DNA from: Ignavibacteriota bacterium
GTDB taxonomy: Bacteria; Bacteroidota; Ignavibacteria; UBA10030; UBA6906
NCBI GenBank assembly: GCA_963801355.1
Contig: CAWDEM010000004.1
Span: forward strand, 96,001-160,000
Direction of reading: 5' to 3'
DNA length: 64,000 bases
How positions within the stretch are numbered: position 1 is the first letter of the stretch; the number at the start of each line of letters is the position of its first letter. The position numbers were made by a program, and so were the translations under genes. Below the pieces are notes generated by a model. It did not search any database. It had not been told where the DNA came from and saw only the letters and a list, made by a program, of their open reading frames with translations. Of this stretch, positions 20,676 through 26,957 are shown piece by piece.

Positions 20676-21506
20676 CTACCCCCGCCTCGCCACAACGCTC
20701 CATAGCCACGACACTCCCATCACCACTGACGCCACCGCAACGATTGCGGGGGATGCCGGAACATCAAACACGAACGCGAGAAACAGACCCGCGATGGGTG
20801 CCAGCGCACCGATCACCACAGACAGGACAAAGATTGCCTTCACGTTGCGCGTGAGCAGCATTGCGGTCACCGGCGGTATCACGAGGAAACCAAATACAAA
20901 GAGATCCCCCACCATGTGTGTCGCAAAGGCAATCACCACTGCCGCAATAAGGTAAAACGCCAGATTCCATCCCGCCGCATTGAACCCCTGTGTTTGCGCC
21001 GTCTCCGGATCAAAGGAGGTGTAGGTGAACTCCTTGAAGAAGATCAGATGGAGTGCCATGGCCACCACGAACGCGGCCACCATCAGCTCAAACAACCCCG
21101 GAGTCACAAACAGGATATCCCCCCGGAGCAGATTCTCGATTTCCGAGACTTCCACCCGCTGCGCCTTCTGCATGATAAGAATCCGTGCTGCAACAGAGGT
21201 AATAAACACAACACCCAGCACGCCATCGCGCGGGATCTTCTTACCCGTCAGCATCCGTGAAATGATCACCACGGTCAGCAACGTAATGCCCAGTGAACCG
21301 ATCGTGTGGGGAACGGGGAAGAAAGGGAGAAACGTAAGCGCAAGTCCCATCACCGACACCTGCGTCAGCACTGCGCCGAGAAATACCACCCTGCGGGCGA
21401 CAATGTAGACACCGAGAAATGCGCACACGATCCCCACCAGAATGCTGCCATAGAGCGCGAGGGGAAATTCCTGGACTATGGTCCGGAGGATATCAGCGGT
21501 TCCCAT
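20676..21506 (-). CDS. Zn/Mn-type metal ABC transporter permease (ABC-3)
   Basis: LGVYIVARRVVFLG, LLRGDIL, SFDPETAQTQG, IPPVTA. Confidence 0.9.
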   Translation of the reverse strand: MGTADILRTIVQEFPLALYGSILVGIVCAFLGVYIVARRVVFLGAVLTQVSVMGLALTFLPFFPVPHTIGSLGITLLTVVIISRMLTGKKIPRDGVLGVVFITSVAARILIMQKAQRVEVSEIENLLRGDILFVTPGLFELMVAAFVVAMALHLIFFKEFTYTSFDPETAQTQGFNAAGWNLAFYLIAAVVIAFATHMVGDLFVFGFLVIPPVTAMLLTRNVKAIFVLSVVIGALAPIAGLFLAFVFDVPASPAIVAVASVVMGVSWLWSVVARRG

Positions 21507-22263
21507 TTCCGCCTCCGGCAATGATGATCGTGCGTCCATGTGAGCGTTGGACTTCAACCGGCATGTCGTAGATCGCCGAGAGGTTTTCTCCTGTCAATAC
21601 TTCGTCCACGGTTCCAACCGAGAAGACCTTATATTCAACCACCGCAAGTCTTTGCACGTGATTTGCCACATCATCAAGGAGATGACTGACCAGCAGCACG
21701 GTGAGTGATCCCTGACGATGGAGCTCACGGATCAGATCGAGAATCGCAATGCGCGACGCAAGATCCATGCCGTTGGTGGGTTCGTCGAGCACAAGTACAT
21801 CGGGAGTGGAGGCCAGTGCACGAGCTATCAGCGCGCGCTGTTTCTGTCCTCCCGACAGGTCCTTGAACGGCCGGTCGGCCATCTCCTCCATGCCGACGTG
21901 ACCGAGGCTCTGTGCCACCGCTTCCCGGTCCGCTGCGCCCGGCCTCCTGAAATAGCCCAGTTGCCTGTAGCGCCCCATCATCACCACCTCACGCGCGGTA
22001 TACGGAAGAACATAATCCACCGTGTCCCGTTGAGGAACATAGCCGAATCGTATCGGCCGGCCATCCGGACGCCGAACGCTGACAGTTCCTGACTGTGGTC
22101 GAAGGGTTCCGAGAATCGCCCGCACGATTGTTGTTTTTCCTGCGCCGTTGGGACCTACGAGGCCGAAGTATTCTCCAGCCTCCACTCTAAAGGTGATGTC
22201 ACGGAGGATCACGTGGTCTCCGTATCCCAATGTGACGTTCGTAAACGCAATCAGAGGTTCCAT
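21493..22263 (-). CDS. Zn/Mn-type metal ABC transporter ATPase
   Basis: GPNGAGKT, GYVPQ, LSGGQKQR, LDEPT. Confidence 0.92.
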   Translation of the reverse strand: MEPLIAFTNVTLGYGDHVILRDITFRVEAGEYFGLVGPNGAGKTTIVRAILGTLRPQSGTVSVRRPDGRPIRFGYVPQRDTVDYVLPYTAREVVMMGRYRQLGYFRRPGAADREAVAQSLGHVGMEEMADRPFKDLSGGQKQRALIARALASTPDVLVLDEPTNGMDLASRIAILDLIRELHRQGSLTVLLVSHLLDDVANHVQRLAVVEYKVFSVGTVDEVLTGENLSAIYDMPVEVQRSHGRTIIIAGGGNGNR

Positions 22264-22282
22264 GGCCCTGGTGGAGTAGTTG

Positions 22283-23161
22283 CTATTTGAGGACTGATGC
22301 AAGTGTTGAGACATCATAGTCAATCAGACCTATATAGTCACGCACCTGTTCCACACCTCCTGACGACGTCGGCAGTACAACAACCTTCGCTCCTGTGGCC
22401 CTCGCAATCTGTTCAGGAGCCGATAGATCGTAGAATGGCTCGACGACGATCGCCTTGATGCCGGCCGAGCGAACGAGCGCAATCAACTCCGCAGAATGGC
22501 TCGGGCTCGGAGCAATGCCCGGCTTGGGTTCAACCTCGCCCACAACCTCCAACCCAAGCCACTTCGCAAAGTACGACCAGCTTTTATGGAACGTGACAAT
22601 TTTCCGTCCCGCAAACGGTTTCATCAACGCTTCCCAACTCTGGATCCGTCCTGCGAGTTTCTGCACATACGCATCGGCGTTTGCCCTGAATATTTTTCCG
22701 TCGGCCGGTGAGACTCTTATCAACGCGTTCACGATTTCATCCATAATCGCACGAACATTCCTCGGATCCAGCCAGTAGTGCGGATTGCCGTACCGGTGGA
22801 CATCGCCCTGACTTGCGTCGACGTTTGCCGGGACCTCGATTTTCGTAACTCCCCGTGAAAGATCCACCACAATGAGTGACGCGTTTCGGGAGCCGTCCAC
22901 TATTTGCGGGGCCCACATTTCGAGTTCCATCCCGATTGTCAGAAAGAGATCGGCCGACTTCAGCTTCATCATATAGCTGGGTTTTACTTCCACAAAATGT
23001 GGATTCTGATCCGCGCGCACGATGGATTCCACGCTTACTTTGTCGCCTCCCACCTGCCGCGCCAGATCGGCGAGATCGGGCAACGACGTGACGACCTTGA
23101 TTGCCGCTTCCGAAATTCCGGCCATCGCCAGTACCATCAATGCAGTGATGATCATCTTCAT
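22283..23161 (-). CDS. Cluster A-I (ZnuA/TroA-like) metal-binding protein
   Basis: Signal peptide; NPHFVE, GDVH..GNPHYWLDP, TFHKSW, EPKPGIAPSPSH. Confidence 0.92.
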   Translation of the reverse strand: MKMIITALMVLAMAGISEAAIKVVTSLPDLADLARQVGGDKVSVESIVRADQNPHFVEVKPSYMMKLKSADLFLTIGMELEMWAPQIVDGSRNASLIVVDLSRGVTKIEVPANVDASQGDVHRYGNPHYWLDPRNVRAIMDEIVNALIRVSPADGKIFRANADAYVQKLAGRIQSWEALMKPFAGRKIVTFHKSWSYFAKWLGLEVVGEVEPKPGIAPSPSHSAELIALVRSAGIKAIVVEPFYDLSAPEQIARATGAKVVVLPTSSGGVEQVRDYIGLIDYDVSTLASVLK

Positions 23162-23291: not shown

Positions 23292-23327
23292 CCTAACTCA
23301 TTTCCCCAAAAACCCAGGCCCCCTTTG

Positions 23328-24425
23328 TTAGAACGGATGCGCCTTATGCGGTCCGAGCGAAAACAGAATCTGCAAATCAATGCTGTTCACGCTCCGGCTT
23401 GCTCCCGGCACTTCCACTGTCGTGCGCCCATACTGCAGGCGCAGGCCGAGCGTTTCTTCAACCGGATAGTATCCGGCAAAGACCGCGAAGCCGCTCGCGC
23501 GGTCATCGGTACTGTAAGGCGTCTCTGACCAATCGATCCGTGCCCCGATGCTGTAGGTCTTGAGAAATTGATAGTCAGCGTAGAGATAGTATCCGGAACT
23601 TGACAACGTCGATTCCTCCGGGAGATGGAGGGCCCGCGTATTCACGAGATACTCCCCCTGTACTACGAGCGATGTGTATGCACTAGGGCGATACTTGTAT
23701 TTGAAATCCAGGTTTCCATACCAGAAGCGGTCACGGTTGTACGGATCGTGGATGCCCGTGTAGCCGCTCAATCCAATCTCCAGATCGCTGAAGTCACTCA
23801 TTGTAAAGAAACTTGAGAGCCGCGCAGAGTTCGCGTAGTACGGTGTCCCGCCTGTGCTGTCCACCATGCCGGTTGCACCCCCGATTGCCGTTCCCCTGAG
23901 GAGGTCGACGGTCAGTTTGGTGTAGACCTCTCCGGTCGGCAACAGCACGCTCGCACTGATCCCGAGATCATTCAACGATTCACCAAGAAACCGTTCCTGC
24001 ATGAGAGGAGCTGTAATGAAGGGCCAGGCATGCGGATGGGTCATGTTGAGCTTGCCGAATTCTGCGCGGTACTTCCCGACCCGGAGGTTCATATCGAGAG
24101 GGAGGCCACGCAGCACAGTCGCGTAGACTTCTTCTATTCCCAGCTTGCTGTTCTCAAGATCGGGCCCGGGCAGGGTAAGCACGACATCGGCCTTTGAAAA
24201 TGGATTCAGGTAGGCCTGCAGGGCAAGTTCAAGTTCTTCAAACGAGAAATCGGGTCTGCTGAATTCGCGGCTTCCTCCGTCGAGTTTCTGCCCATCGTCA
24301 GAATGGACGAGGAACCGCGGAATGACGCTGATATCGGGATTGACGGTGGTTTGGGCGACGGCTGCAACCGGAACACCGATCAACAGGCCGGAAAAGATCA
24401 ACAGGAAATGCGTGGAACACGGCAT
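23328..24425 (-). CDS. Outer-membrane beta-barrel (metal-uptake-associated porin-like protein)
   Basis: Signal peptide; NPDISVI, IEEVY, FGKLNMTHPHAWPF; amphipathic beta pattern; His-containing C-terminus GPHKAHPF; SD GGAGG upstream. Confidence 0.75.
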   Translation of the reverse strand: MPCSTHFLLIFSGLLIGVPVAAVAQTTVNPDISVIPRFLVHSDDGQKLDGGSREFSRPDFSFEELELALQAYLNPFSKADVVLTLPGPDLENSKLGIEEVYATVLRGLPLDMNLRVGKYRAEFGKLNMTHPHAWPFITAPLMQERFLGESLNDLGISASVLLPTGEVYTKLTVDLLRGTAIGGATGMVDSTGGTPYYANSARLSSFFTMSDFSDLEIGLSGYTGIHDPYNRDRFWYGNLDFKYKYRPSAYTSLVVQGEYLVNTRALHLPEESTLSSSGYYLYADYQFLKTYSIGARIDWSETPYSTDDRASGFAVFAGYYPVEETLGLRLQYGRTTVEVPGASRSVNSIDLQILFSLGPHKAHPF

Positions 24426-24466
24426 AGTGCCCTCCAAAATCTTTCACACTGGATGGTTGCGATCGT

Positions 24467-24850
24467 TCAGACGACCGCAGGAGGGCCGCGCTTTTCAGGT
24501 AAGAGGTGATTGCCCGAGGATACCGGGGGAATAGTAAGAGTGCAGAATTCCGCGGAATCATCGTGGACCGCGGAAATATCAACGGATTCAACAGGCGCAC
24601 TGAATCGCTGATGCAACTGCCAGCAAAGAACGCACGGACGGATGTTATCCAGCGGAATGTGATGCTCCTGATCGCCGCATTCATGAGCTGCCAGGGCGGG
24701 GTCAGCGACGAGGCGGAGGGCAATCGCGTGTGTGTGTCCGAAGACACCAAGACCTCCGGCAAGCTGGGTGGCTAGCAAGAAGATGCCAATGCCGCGACGG
24801 AGTACGTCCGCGCCGTGCCGAGTTCCGCTATGATGGGTTCGTTTGAGCAT
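24467..24850 (-). CDS. DUF2946/CruR-like leader protein (TM, HTH tripeptide/His cluster, CxxC, C-terminal RGPP)
   Basis: GIGIFLLATQLAGGLGVF-GHTH...HEC..EHH...CVLC...EKRGPPAVV-stop, 41 nt upstream of porin ATG. Confidence 0.78.
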   Translation of the reverse strand: MLKRTHHSGTRHGADVLRRGIGIFLLATQLAGGLGVFGHTHAIALRLVADPALAAHECGDQEHHIPLDNIRPCVLCWQLHQRFSAPVESVDISAVHDDSAEFCTLTIPPVSSGNHLLPEKRGPPAVV

Positions 24851-24896
24851 TGCTCACACAAGAACAGCAAGAAGGCTCAAGAGATTCCCGGCCGAC

Positions 24897-26063
24897 TCAT
24901 TCTCCTGCCGGCCGACTGATGACTCCCAGTACCACAGGTTTTCGCGCGCCTGTTACGCGGGGAAGATTTGCGCAATTCCCGTGCACGGTCTCGTTCGCCA
25001 GAATGGCAAAGCAGATCGCTTCCTTCGCGTCACCGGACAACCCGTAGTCATCCACCGGCTTCACCACTGCGCCGGCAAACAAGCGCTGCAGTTCTTCAAG
25101 AAAAAATCTGTTCCGTGCCCCTCCGCCGCTCACGATAAGTTCATCGACCTGCGCGGAGCGGGGAATGAACCGGCGGTACGCGTCATGGACGGCAAAGGGA
25201 GTGATCGCGGAGACCGTCCGGATGATATCAGCGTGCTTTTCTCCCTTCGCGGCGTGAAGGATCCGGCTGACCATTTCTTCTCCGAATTCTTCGCGCCCGG
25301 TGGACTTCGGCGGACGGCGGCGTAAGTAGGGATGCTGCGCAAGCAGGCGGAAGAGCCCGGGGATGACCTGTCCGCGTGCAGCAACGGCTCCATCGGCGTC
25401 ATATTTCCGTCCGTAGAACCGCTGCATGAGCGCATCCACCAGCATATTGCCGGGACCGGTATCGAAGGCGATGACGTCAGCGGACGTGCATCCCCGCGGC
25501 AGGAGCGTGATGTTGCCGATGCCGCCGATATTCAGAAGAAGACGGCACTTGCTCCGCGACCGGAATATCAGCCAGTCGAAGTACGGCACCAGCGGCGCCC
25601 CCTCTCCCCCCACCGCCATGTCCGCGTTCCGGAAATTCCCCACCGTAGGAATCCCCGTCAACGTCGCTATCACCGAAGGATCACCGACCTGAAGTGTCGC
25701 CCGGACAGTTTTTCCGAACATTTTCACCGGATGCGGAAGGTGATGCAGGGTCTGGCCATGTGAGCCAATGAGGGATATCTCGCGGAGGGCAACGCGGGCT
25801 TTCTTTGCCAGAACGGCCACCGCATCAGCGTAGAATTGCCCAAACAGCACATTCAGTCTTGTTATCTCATCCACCTGGCTTGTTTCCGGAACAGAGTTCC
25901 TGAGCACAAGCTCTCGCAACCCTTTGGGAAACGGCAGTTCAACATACATCAGCTGGCGGAACTTTGTACGGAGCCCTGCCCCCTGCACCCTCAGCAGAAC
26001 TGCATCAATACCGTCCAGCGACGTACCTGACATCAGCCCGATGACCAGCCGCGATTGGGACAT
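24897..26063 (-). CDS. anmK: Anhydro-N-acetylmuramic acid kinase
   Basis: GLMSGTSLDGID, GSHGQT, GGEGAPL, NIGGIGN, FDTGPGN, PKSTGRE. Confidence 0.96.
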   Translation of the reverse strand: MSQSRLVIGLMSGTSLDGIDAVLLRVQGAGLRTKFRQLMYVELPFPKGLRELVLRNSVPETSQVDEITRLNVLFGQFYADAVAVLAKKARVALREISLIGSHGQTLHHLPHPVKMFGKTVRATLQVGDPSVIATLTGIPTVGNFRNADMAVGGEGAPLVPYFDWLIFRSRSKCRLLLNIGGIGNITLLPRGCTSADVIAFDTGPGNMLVDALMQRFYGRKYDADGAVAARGQVIPGLFRLLAQHPYLRRRPPKSTGREEFGEEMVSRILHAAKGEKHADIIRTVSAITPFAVHDAYRRFIPRSAQVDELIVSGGGARNRFFLEELQRLFAGAVVKPVDDYGLSGDAKEAICFAILANETVHGNCANLPRVTGARKPVVLGVISRPAGE

Positions 26064-26090
26064 TATTCGCACTCTTCGTATCTTGGAGAT

Positions 26091-26957
26091 ATGAGTCCGC
26101 CACTATTGCTTGGCACACATGTGTCTGTTGCCGGTGGGATGCACACCGCCTTCGACCGTGCAACGCAGATCGGCTGCACGACCATGCAGGTGTTCGTTAA
26201 GAACGCCAGTCAGTGGAAGGCTAAACCGCTGGGCAGCAGCGACATTGAAAGCTACAAAACTGCACGTGCGCGTGCAACTGTTTCCCCTGTCGTCGCACAT
26301 GCGGCATATCTCATCAATCTCTGCGCCGTGCAACCGGAAACGTTAAGACGGTCATGTGATGCTTTCGAAGATGAGCTCCGGCGTTGCGAAGCTCTGGAGA
26401 TTATGGGGCTGATCGTTCACCCCGGCGCTCACCTTGGTGCCGGAGAAGCCGCGGGTCTCCAACGCATCGCCGAATCGCTGAACGACATTCATGCCCGCAC
26501 ACCCGGTTTCCGGACCCTGACGCTGCTTGAGACTACGGCCGGTCAGGGTACATCGCTCGGATCGACATTCGCCCAACTGCGCCGGATCATCGATGGGACC
26601 GCGGATCCAGCGAGAATCGCGATCTGTATGGATACCTGCCATGTCTTTGCCGCCGGTTATGATATCCGGACGGCGCACGGATGGAAATCGCTGCTTGAGG
26701 ACTTCAACAGGGAACTCGGTCTTGACCGCCTCAAGGTTATTCATGTCAACGATTCCAAAAAGGATATGGGATCGCACGTAGACCGGCACGAGCATATCGG
26801 CCTCGGGCGCATCGGTCTGGAGGGATTCAGATTTCTCATGAATGACCCGCGCCTTGCGGGCATTCCCCTGATCCTGGAAACGGAGAAAAGCGACGATATG
26901 CATGAGGACCGTGAAAATATGGAGCGCTTGCGCTCTCTCATTGGGAAGCGAGCGTAA
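26091..26957 (+). CDS. nfo: Endonuclease IV
   Basis: HAAYLIN, HPG, ETTAGQG, DTCHVFAAGYD, HVNDSK, DRHEHIG. Confidence 0.96.
   Translation: MSPPLLLGTHVSVAGGMHTAFDRATQIGCTTMQVFVKNASQWKAKPLGSSDIESYKTARARATVSPVVAHAAYLINLCAVQPETLRRSCDAFEDELRRCEALEIMGLIVHPGAHLGAGEAAGLQRIAESLNDIHARTPGFRTLTLLETTAGQGTSLGSTFAQLRRIIDGTADPARIAICMDTCHVFAAGYDIRTAHGWKSLLEDFNRELGLDRLKVIHVNDSKKDMGSHVDRHEHIGLGRIGLEGFRFLMNDPRLAGIPLILETEKSDDMHEDRENMERLRSLIGKRA

What the first reader, a model, noticed from the sequence alone, without database searches (positions are those of the whole stretch)
24423..24490. RGPP codons are themselves the anti-Shine-Dalgarno of the downstream porin gene
Seen on the minus-strand mRNA: cgcg-GCCCUCC-ugcggucgu-cuga-acgaucgca-N22-GGAGGGC-acu-AUG. 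GCCCUCC (24486-24480, within the Gly-Pro-Pro codons) is the exact complement of GGAGGGC (24435-24429, the porin SD). It is contiguous with a 9-bp hairpin (one G-U pair) whose loop holds the leader stop codon. Inference: a ribosome stalled on RGPP covers the anti-SD and frees the RBS, giving stall-ON/release-OFF logic as in secM-secA and mifM-yidC2. This supports the arrest-peptide model independently of the protein motif.
Basis: partly seen in the sequence, partly recalled or inferred. Interest (0 to 1): 0.8.

Follow-up and report, generated by a model that had tools for sequence, protein, structure and literature searches.

The report
Arrest-peptide codons mask downstream ribosome site
The last codons of a small, probably metal-sensing leader gene that ends in the ribosome-stalling motif RGPP base-pair with the ribosome-binding site of the next gene, the first of a porin and zinc-type importer operon, so a stalled ribosome would switch that operon on; this kind of switch is already known for copper.

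Summary
GCCCUCC (24486-24480, Gly-Pro-Pro codons) is the exact complement of GGAGGGC (24435-24429, Shine-Dalgarno (SD) site of the outer-membrane barrel gene). It abuts a 9-bp hairpin whose loop holds the leader's stop codon.

The helix is the dominant predicted partner of the SD: P 0.77, 0.77, 0.52 and 0.98 in four contexts.

The leader (24467-24850, minus strand, 127 aa) has a transmembrane (TM) segment, an invariant His, an invariant CxxC, a 44-residue spacer, RGPP, three residues and a stop. This is the layout of the copper-sensing leaders CruR and CutF (DUF2946).

Across 47 related loci, the leader's end is the best complement to the downstream start region in 20 (binomial 1.6e-7). Cognate pairs beat non-cognate pairs (0 of 20,000 permutations). 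The first Pro codon is CCU in 28 of 47, against 6.2 expected. Where the Pro codons do not fit the SD, the codons after them often do.

The 7-bp match and the hairpin are specific to this genome or genus. Rho-dependent control, as in CruR, may coexist.

It is a new variant of a known kind. This scan has noted the same class in other genomes.

The parts
24467..24850 (-). Leader (upstream regulatory ORF). 127 aa if it starts at ATG 24850. It ends ...LLPEKRGPPAVV, with stop TGA at 24469-24467.
   Evidence: ORF list. A conserved frame is present in 26 of 30 loci examined. Alignment A1 has invariant H39, C73, C76, R121, P123 and P124.
24737..24793 (-). Hydrophobic segment, residues 20-38 (GIGIFLLATQLAGGLGVFG). 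It is preceded by Arg/Lys-rich residues and is a putative N-in signal anchor. The invariant His39 follows at 24734-24736.
   Evidence: Simple hydrophobicity scan and alignment. No topology predictor was run.
24659..24685 (-). HECGDQEHH, the HxCGxxExH motif (residues 56-64). It is a candidate metal ligand cluster.
   Evidence: The motif was found in 21 of 26 leaders.
24623..24634 (-). CxxC motif (C73-V-L-C76).
   Evidence: Both Cys are invariant in 26 of 26 leaders.
24491..24622 (-). 44-codon spacer between CxxC and RGPP. Its length is conserved, its sequence is not, and it is pyrimidine-rich with C>G.
   Evidence: The spacing is 44 residues in 23 of 26 leaders and 45 in 3 of 26. The C-G skew is positive in 47 of 47 loci.
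24479..24490 (-). RGPP arrest motif codons: CGC GGC CCT CCT.
   Evidence: R, P and P are invariant. RGPP gave the strongest arrest among the tested core motifs (PMC12992588, section read).
24480..24486 (-). Anti-SD GCCCUCC.
24458..24479 (-). 9-bp hairpin whose loop CUGA holds the leader's stop codon.
   Evidence: It is conserved in the genus, with one G-C to A-U double change in L002. It is not general: only 9 of 47 loci have z < -1.64.
24451..24456 (-). CCAUCC, an alternative local partner of the SD in the MFE structure.
   Evidence: Its probability is 0.17, 0.16, 0.08 and 0.01 in the four contexts.
24429..24435 (-). Shine-Dalgarno GGAGGGC of the outer-membrane barrel gene.
   Evidence: A GGAGG-type SD is conserved in most orthologues.
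23328..24425 (-). Outer-membrane beta-barrel (porin-like) gene of 365 aa, starting at ATG 24425-24423.
   Evidence: ORF. Weak, sub-threshold Pfam BBP2 hit (E 1.9e-4, 21.2 bits against a cut-off of 26.2). No NCBIfam family. A match at E <= 0.001 was found in 51 of 61 related genomes.
22283..23161 (-). ZnuA-family periplasmic metal-binding protein.
   Evidence: Pfam ZnuA, E 1.5e-63. The nearest NCBIfam models are AztC (zinc) and MntC, both below cut-off. It has His where MntC has the Glu ligand.
20676..22323 (-). ABC ATPase (21493-22323) and ABC-3 permease (20676-21557) of the importer.

Best explanation
The 68-nt stretch joins the end of a CruR/CutF-like regulatory leader gene to the translation start region of the next gene.

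The leader encodes a membrane-anchored peptide with His/Cys metal ligands (H39, HxCGxxExH, CxxC). These lie exactly 44 residues before a C-terminal RGPP arrest motif.

When no ribosome occupies the leader's end, the Gly-Pro-Pro codons (GCCCUCC) pair with the SD (GGAGGGC) of the outer-membrane barrel gene. This helix stacks on a 9-bp hairpin, and translation of the porin and Zn-type ABC importer operon is held low.

[quoted passage not shown] The ribosome then sits on the anti-SD and also unwinds the 5' arm of the hairpin. The SD is freed and the operon is translated.

Metal binding by the nascent chain is inferred to shorten the arrest. That would be CruR polarity, which fits an uptake operon: metal present, release, OFF.

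Shown here: the complementarity, its predicted dominance, the conserved peptide layout, the codon bias, and the co-variation of leader end and start region across relatives.

Inferred: that arrest happens, that a metal modulates it, which metal, and in which direction.
For: 1. Sequence and fold.
- The complement is exact.
- The helix probability is 0.77, 0.77, 0.52 and 0.98 in four contexts.
- The SD's P(unpaired) is 0.023, against a median of 0.21 in 150 control genes of the same genome that carry a GGAGG SD. 11% of those controls are at or below 0.02.

2. Peptide layout.
- The frame ending R[GA]PP plus 2-6 residues is present in 26 of 30 loci examined.
- H39, C73, C76, R121, P123 and P124 are invariant.
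- The CxxC-to-R spacing is 44 residues in 23 of 26 leaders and 45 in 3 of 26. [quoted passage not shown]
- Third codon positions vary, so the constraint acts on the peptide.

3. Comparative RNA evidence in 47 loci.
- The zone from the R codon to stop+15 makes up 12% of positions. It holds the best complement to the start region in 20 of 47 loci (binomial 1.6e-7). In 23 of 47, no outside window is as good.
- Cognate duplexes average -13.9 kcal/mol and non-cognate ones -11.7. None of 20,000 permutations reached the cognate mean. After removing row and column effects, 38 of 47 cognate cells lie below expectation.
- With the RGPP codons excluded, the post-PP zone (6.9% of positions) is still the best in 11 of 47 loci (p 2.8e-4).
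- The pairing sequences differ between lineages. Examples are CUCUCCUGA/UCAGGAGAG in L008, AGAUAUUUUCA/UGAAAAUAUCU in L048 (which has no SD), and AUCUCCUU/AAGGAGAU in L051.

4. Codon bias. The first Pro codon is CCU in 28 of 47 loci. The same loci's downstream genes predict 6.2 (0 of 200,000 simulations reach 28). Genome-wide, Pro-Pro dipeptides start with CCU 23% of the time.

5. Footprint model. Masking -12..+15 around the first Pro codon lowers the start region's opening energy from a mean of 12.1 to 9.7 kcal/mol. The drop is at least 3 kcal/mol in 18 of 47 loci. A mock ribosome placed 45 nt upstream gives a mean of 11.6 kcal/mol, with a drop of at least 3 kcal/mol in 5 of 47.

6. Precedent.
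- RGPP supports the most robust arrest of the tested core motifs (PMC12992588).
Against: - No experiment bears on this locus.
- The loci are related, so the binomial and permutation figures overstate independence.
- The overall folding energy is not unusual (z = -0.90). The MFE of the 121- and 186-nt contexts uses another register.
- In the model, the SD of this window stays mostly paired even with the ribosome footprint masked (P unpaired 0.13; opening energy still 9.6 kcal/mol).
- The 7-bp match is not conserved in the two congeners, which keep only CCUCC/GGAGG. L002 has a better complement 45-53 nt upstream.
- In 24 of 47 loci some other upstream window pairs at least as well. In 11 of 23 close orthologues P(SD pairs leader end) is at most 0.5.
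- Flank co-variation in the strict CCUCC:GGAGG register is weak: outer side p 0.016, inner side p 0.32, n = 17.
- CCU, CGC (42 of 47) and GGU (27 of 47) are all preferred. Some other constraint on these codons, for example on decoding, cannot be excluded.
Confidence: 0.62

Rival explanations
1. The main output is Rho-dependent transcription termination, as shown for CruR. A ribosome stalled on RGPP shields a C-rich Rho loading site in the leader's 3' half. Once it is released, Rho terminates before the porin gene. On this view the SD pairing is secondary or merely additive.
For: - The 44-codon spacer has C>G skew in 47 of 47 loci (mean 0.24, against 0.02 in the downstream gene) and is 60% pyrimidine.
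- CruR has the same peptide layout and works through Rho, with a C/T-rich unstructured stretch in the gene's second half (PMC9426467).
- No intrinsic terminator was found in 24300-25200.
Against: - Only 41 nt separate the leader's stop from the porin start here. The range in the 47 loci is 40-151 nt. In Bordetella pertussis the distance is 162 nt.
- Rho control does not explain why the leader's end co-varies with the start region.
- The skew in this window is modest (0.15) and similar to that of the leader's N-terminal part (0.13).
- The skew could be a by-product of Pro/Ser/Leu/Thr-rich composition.
Confidence: 0.2
2. The complementarity has no function. Pro-Pro codons (CCN CCN) resemble the anti-SD CCUCC and any strong SD is GGAGG, so an RGPP leader next to a strong SD will look paired.
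For: - The conserved core is only 5 bp in the two congeners.
- The fold's z-score is unremarkable.
- 19% of control GGAGG genes also have P(unpaired) below 0.05.
- Many pyrimidine-rich windows in the leader pair nearly as well in some loci.
Against: - CCU at the first Pro is enriched about 4.5-fold over expectation (28 observed, 6.2 expected).
- Complementarity persists when the RGPP codons are excluded (11 of 47; p 2.8e-4).
- It persists in a locus with no SD at all (L048).
- Cognate pairs beat non-cognate pairs after composition is removed.
Confidence: 0.12
3. This is plain translational coupling. Any ribosome that finishes the leader unwinds the structure and lets a ribosome start on the porin gene. 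Expression of the operon then simply tracks translation of the leader, with no regulated, metal-dependent arrest.
For: - The stop codon lies 12 nt after the anti-SD and inside the adjacent hairpin. A terminating ribosome therefore also covers the anti-SD.
- The distance from stop to start is short.
Against: Coupling needs none of the features that are in fact conserved: the invariant RGPP, the CxxC, and the fixed 44-residue spacing. All of these have demonstrated roles in CruR.
Confidence: 0.1

Closest known systems
CutF-cutO of Rhodobacter capsulatus (DUF2946; PMC9973294 and bioRxiv 10.1101/2025.02.05.636593; abstracts and sections 6, 10-12 read)
   Same: - A small exported leader with a Cys metal motif and a Pro-rich C-terminal stalling motif.
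- Stalling melts an mRNA structure that shields the SD of the next gene.
- It is the first gene of a metal-homeostasis operon.
- The authors catalogued 5,334 CutF-like proteins, many of them in Bacteroidota.
   Different: - CutF has CxxxC, and copper prolongs the stall to switch ON a detoxifying oxidase.
- Its anti-SD lies in an intergenic stem-loop.
- Here the motif is CxxC plus RGPP, the anti-SD is the arrest codons themselves, and the cargo is an uptake system, so the opposite metal polarity is expected.
- I could not see that paper's supplementary lists, so this clade may already be in them.
CruR (Bp2923) of Bordetella pertussis, prototype of DUF2946/PF11162 (PMC9426467; sections 9-11 read)
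   Same: [quoted passage not shown]
- It heads a metal-uptake operon that begins with an outer-membrane protein.
- The logic is stall = ON.
   Different: - CruR has RAPP, senses copper, and acts through Rho-dependent termination across a 162-nt intergenic region. No SD pairing is described (0 occurrences of 'Shine', 'RBS' or 'hairpin').
- Here the motif is RGPP, the gap is 41 nt, the SD is masked, and the importer is a ZnuA-type ABC system.
- The Pfam model does not detect the window's protein.
SecM-secA (and MifM-yidC2, VemP-secDF2) monitoring substrates
   Same: An arrest near the leader's C-terminus disrupts a structure that hides the downstream SD (the description of SecM in PMC7897499 was read).
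   Different: Those leaders sense protein export and control sec or yidC genes. The downstream genes here are a porin-like barrel and a metal importer, and the leader carries metal ligands.
ApdA/ApdP/ApcA RAPP-type arrest peptides and the RGPP/RAPP small ORFs surveyed in PMC12992588
   Same: - The same class of arrest core. RGPP was shown to arrest robustly and to resist EF-P.
- Such ORFs are enriched upstream of metal-related genes.
   Different: - For ApcA, ApdA and ApdP, structure prediction found no SD-sequestering hairpin (PMC7897499, discussion passage).
- That survey reported Cu-related uORFs as missing from Bacteroidota.

Membership tests
CruR/CutF-like leaders (Pfam DUF2946, PF11162) | Match to the PF11162 model at its gathering score. 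| tested here: not met
   - The window's protein has no Pfam hit, even at E <= 10.
- A six-frame search of its own genome with PF11162 does not hit the leader.
- 4 of 26 relatives give weak hits; the best E-value is 0.0042.
CruR/CutF-like leaders (Pfam DUF2946, PF11162) | Remote homology to proteins that the family model recognises. | tested here: inconclusive
   - hhalign of A1 (26 leaders) against A2 gave probability 91.5% and E 8.6e-7 over 103 columns. TM segment, His, CxxC and RxPP align in register.
- A2 holds 6 Bacteroidota proteins taken from the eight PF11162 matches, which lie near that model's cut-off.
- A2 is small, comes from the same phylum, and is dominated by short motifs.
CruR/CutF-like leaders (Pfam DUF2946, PF11162) | N-terminal export signal or an N-in TM segment. 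| tested here: met
   A basic N-terminus is followed by a 19-residue hydrophobic segment. This rests on composition only; no dedicated predictor was run.
CruR/CutF-like leaders (Pfam DUF2946, PF11162) | Invariant CXXC (CxxxC in CutF). | tested here: met
   C73 and C76 are invariant in 26 of 26 leaders.
CruR/CutF-like leaders (Pfam DUF2946, PF11162) | Fixed spacing of about 45 residues between CXXC and the R-x-P-P motif. | tested here: met
   The spacing is 44 residues in 23 of 26 leaders and 45 in 3 of 26. More distant members were picked by requiring 43-46, so they do not test this feature.
CruR/CutF-like leaders (Pfam DUF2946, PF11162) | RAPP-like motif a few residues before the C-terminus. 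| tested here: met
   RGPP plus 3 residues here. Relatives have R[GA]PP plus 2-6 residues.
CruR/CutF-like leaders (Pfam DUF2946, PF11162) | First gene of a metal-homeostasis operon. | tested here: met
   It is followed on the same strand by a porin-like barrel, a ZnuA-family binding protein, an ABC ATPase and an ABC-3 permease.
CruR/CutF-like leaders (Pfam DUF2946, PF11162) | Metal-dependent ribosome arrest that controls the downstream genes. | not testable with these tools
   This needs toeprinting and reporter assays.
Sec/YidC monitoring substrates (SecM, MifM, VemP) | The downstream gene encodes a component of the protein-export or insertion machinery. | tested here: not met
   The downstream genes are an outer-membrane barrel and a metal ABC importer.
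Sec/YidC monitoring substrates (SecM, MifM, VemP) | An mRNA structure hides the downstream SD and is disrupted by the stalled ribosome. | tested here: met
   This is met in silico only.

The most novel reading that the evidence does not exclude
This is a zinc-sensing nascent-chain switch. The His/Cys site (H39, HxC, CxxC) of the growing leader peptide binds Zn(II) just as RGPP reaches the peptidyl-transferase centre, 44 residues later. Binding releases the arrest, the arrest codons re-pair with the SD, and the Zn importer operon is shut off. That would extend CruR/CutF-type sensing from copper to zinc. It would also give a protein-based post-transcriptional zinc sensor, in a setting where no zinc riboswitch is known (a remark in the discussion of PMC9426467). 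The arrest motif's own codons would double as the RNA switch.
Probability: 0.35. Interest if true: 0.75.

Novelty: new variant of a known kind. Interest (0 to 1): 0.5.

Why it matters
Arrest peptides that sense a metal while they are being made are a recent discovery: CruR in 2022 and CutF in 2023, both for copper.

This locus shows the same peptide layout in uncultured Bacteroidota/Ignavibacteriota-type bacteria (record titles). Here it sits in front of a porin and a zinc-type ABC importer. The Pfam family model does not detect the protein, and public records call its relatives hypothetical (15 of 15 hits carry no Pfam domain).

It combines CruR's fixed CxxC-to-arrest spacing with CutF's masking of the SD. 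It also places the anti-SD inside the codons held by the stalled ribosome.

That gives a compact, testable design rule. It also gives a set of natural compensatory variants, in which different lineages mask the start site with different codons.

My searches found no paper describing RAPP/RGPP leaders before ZnuA-type importers.

Tried and rejected
- **Known RNA families.** An Rfam scan of 23300-26200 at E <= 10 gave only one chance-level hit, inside anmK. The stretch is not a known riboswitch or leader RNA.
- **Intrinsic terminator or sigma-70 promoter.** None was found in 24300-25200. The hairpin has no U-tract, so it is not an attenuator of that kind.
- **The stop-codon hairpin as a family feature.** Rejected. 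Only 9 of 47 loci have a local fold with z < -1.64, and the mean z is -0.43. The hairpin is specific to the genus.
- **Other copies in the same genome.** A scan for CxxC, 38-50 residues, then R[AG]PP near a stop found only this leader among 44 small R[AG]PP-ending frames.
- **Wide search with the leader alignment.** The search for related loci with alignment A1 failed because no stretch was conserved enough. I used the porin protein instead.
- **Thermodynamic release.** With the upstream leader left free to pair, the model predicts that the SD finds other pyrimidine-rich partners. P(unpaired) is therefore a poor read-out, and I used opening energies instead.
- **Not attempted.** Expression data, structure prediction of the leader or the barrel, and complex prediction were not tried.
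Full report
**1. What is in the sequence.**

On the minus strand the order is as follows:
- anmK (24897-26072);
- a 127-codon frame (24850-24467) ending ...LLPEKRGPPAVV-stop;
- 41 nt of spacer;
- a 365-codon outer-membrane barrel gene (ATG 24425), with a weak, sub-threshold BBP2 hit;
- a ZnuA-family binding protein, an ABC ATPase and an ABC-3 permease.

Every element of the finding is at the stated coordinates.
- GCCCUCC lies at 24486-24480, inside GGC-CCU-CC.
- A 9-bp hairpin (24479-24471 with 24466-24458, one G-U pair) has the loop CUGA, which holds the stop codon.
- 22 nt follow, then GGAGGGC (24435-24429), then ACU, then AUG.

**2. Folding of the window.**
- The 121-nt segment folds no better than shuffles (z = -0.90).
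- Its MFE pairs the SD with a local CCAUCC, and pairs the K-R-G codons with the first codons of the barrel gene.
Its mean pair probability is 0.77, 0.77, 0.52 and 0.98 in contexts of 121, 186, 306 and 466 nt.
- A structure containing the helix lies within 1 kcal/mol of the MFE in all four contexts.
- The SD is predicted unpaired with probability 0.023. In 150 control genes of the same genome that carry GGAGG, the median is 0.21, and 11% are at or below 0.02.
- In both registers it is the arrest-site codons that pair with the start region.

**3. The leader is a conserved gene.**
- The barrel gene has matches at E <= 0.001 in 51 of 61 related genomes.
- In 26 of the 30 loci fetched, a frame upstream ends in R[GA]PP plus 2-6 residues. 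In two of the other four loci the contig ends too early.
- The aligned proteins (A1) share a basic N-terminus, one hydrophobic segment, an invariant His just after it, usually HxCGxxExH, an invariant CxxC, and the invariant R, P, P.
- The spacing from CxxC to R is 44 residues in 23 of 26 leaders and 45 in 3 of 26.
- Third codon positions of the motif vary, so the peptide itself is under constraint.
- A profile of A1 found the family in 38 of 401 sampled genomes of the phylum, mostly within the same order.
- In the large protein collection it found 15 proteins. All are unnamed or called hypothetical, and none carries a Pfam domain.
- Record titles of close relatives name uncultured Bacteroidota, Ignavibacteriota and Chlorobi-type MAGs.

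**4. What it resembles.**
- *CruR.* The layout matches CruR of Bordetella pertussis (PMC9426467). [quoted passage not shown] It heads an uptake operon. Copper relieves the arrest, and Rho then terminates transcription.
- *CutF.* CutF of Rhodobacter capsulatus is also DUF2946. [quoted passage not shown]
- *RGPP.* RGPP gave the most robust arrest among the tested core motifs (PMC12992588).
- *Family membership.* Pfam's DUF2946 model does not detect the window's protein. It touches 4 of 26 relatives weakly. A profile-profile comparison with six Bacteroidota proteins that the model does recognise near its cut-off gives 91.5% probability, with all motifs in register.
- I therefore say that it works like CruR/CutF and is probably a distant relative. 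Strict family membership is not shown.

**5. Is the anti-SD more than a by-product of Pro-Pro codons?**

I assembled 47 loci: 25 from the first search, including L028 and L030, and 22 more distant ones from the profile search. Four duplicates of earlier loci, L029 (the same locus as L040) and four loci without a recognisable frame were dropped.

The tests gave these results.
- (a) *Position of the best complement.* Twenty-nucleotide windows were slid over the 380 nt upstream. The zone from the R codon to stop+15 makes up 12% of positions. It holds the best complement to the start region (-20..+3) in 20 of 47 loci (binomial 1.6e-7). In 23 of 47, no outside window is as good.
- (b) *Cognate against non-cognate.* Cognate pairs of leader end and start region average -13.9 kcal/mol, non-cognate pairs -11.7. 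None of 20,000 permutations reached the cognate mean. After double centring, 38 of 47 cognate cells lie below expectation.
- (c) *RGPP codons excluded.* The short zone just after them (6.9% of positions) is still the best in 11 of 47 loci (p 2.8e-4). This includes 5 of the 19 loci whose first Pro codon is not CCU.
- (d) *Different solutions in different lineages.* Some use the PP codons, as here. Others use the following codons (L008, L010, L037, L040, L041, L043, L046-L048, L051), the preceding codons (L038, L050), or bases just past the stop (L034, L049). In L048 the partner is an AU-rich start region with no SD.
- (e) *Codon bias.* The first Pro codon is CCU in 28 of 47 loci, against 6.2 expected from the same loci's downstream genes.
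- (f) *Footprint model.* Masking a 28-nt footprint centred on the first Pro codon lowers the start region's opening energy by a mean of 2.4 kcal/mol. The drop is at least 3 kcal/mol in 18 of 47 loci. A mock footprint 45 nt upstream lowers it by 0.45, with a drop of at least 3 in 5 of 47.

**6. Results against the reading.**
- The loci are relatives, so all the p-values are too small.
- In 24 of 47 loci another window pairs at least as well.
- P(SD pairs leader end) exceeds 0.5 in only 12 of 23 close orthologues.
- The two congeners keep only the 5-bp core. L002 has a better complement at a second Pro-Pro site, 45-53 nt upstream.
- Flank co-variation in the strict register is weak: p 0.016 on the outer side, 0.32 on the inner side, n = 17.
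- For this window the modelled release is partial, from 13.0 to 9.6 kcal/mol.
- The stop-codon hairpin is a feature of the genus, not of the family.
- CGC and GGU are also preferred. An unknown constraint on decoding could therefore contribute to the codon bias.

**7. Mechanism and rivals.**

The best reading is a translational switch. The leader's last codons mask the start region, and a ribosome arrested on RGPP unmasks it. The arrest is tuned by metal binding to the nascent His/Cys site, 44 residues back.

For an uptake operon, CruR polarity is expected: metal releases the arrest and the operon goes OFF.

The metal is probably zinc.
- The transporter's nearest models are AztABC (zinc), although below their cut-offs.
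- The binding protein has His at the position where Synechocystis MntC has Glu (alignment). That this position tells Zn-binding from Mn-binding proteins is my recollection, not a tool result.

Rho-dependent termination remains a live companion mechanism, because the spacer is C>G in 47 of 47 loci. Plain coupling and pure coincidence are less likely, for the reasons given under the rival explanations.

**8. Novelty.**

The kind is known. The new elements are:
- the clade, which the family model does not detect;
- the RGPP core combined with CruR spacing and CutF-type SD masking;
- the anti-SD placed inside the arrest codons;
- the zinc-type cargo.

My literature searches found no description of such leaders before ZnuA-type importers.

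This scan's own earlier notes describe the same class in other genomes, three of them with the same pairing of last codons to the ribosome-binding site. I reached my reading before seeing those notes, and I treat them as agreement, not as evidence.

Noticed in passing
G000 contig C4 near 1473146 (+) and contig C8 near 1261904 (-), both outside the window: Two paralogous small frames have a signal-peptide-like N-terminus and end in DRAPP plus two residues. Each is followed about 130-150 nt later by an ATG preceded by a GAGGAG-type SD. They may be a second family of RAPP leaders in this genome.
   Followed up: partly
window 24491-24622 (-), and the same spacer in 47 loci: The 44-codon spacer between CxxC and RGPP is conserved in length but not in sequence. 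It has C>G skew in 47 of 47 loci (mean 0.24, against 0.02 in the downstream gene). That is the composition expected of a Rho loading site.
   Followed up: partly
L002 and L020, 45-70 nt upstream of their R codon; window 24513-24521 (-): A second Pro-Pro site (IPP) lies in the leader. In the two congeners its codons read UUCCUCC or UUCUCCGG and are a better or equal complement to their SD than the RGPP codons are. In the window the same site reads CCCCC and does not pair.
   Followed up: partly
window 22283-23161 (-): The ZnuA-family binding protein has His (VTFHKSW) at the position where the Mn-binding MntC of Synechocystis (1xvl) has Glu. This suggests a His-rich, zinc-type site. It has no long His-rich loop. 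The ligand assignment is from recollection.
   Followed up: partly
L028, between the leader's stop and the barrel gene's start: A 9-codon ORF (MHCPVYHIV) with a strong GAAGGAG SD lies between the leader and the barrel gene in this more distant relative.
   Followed up: no
L057 and L058: In two distant members the gene after the RGPP leader is a small lipoprotein-like ORF (151-164 aa) rather than the barrel gene.
   Followed up: no
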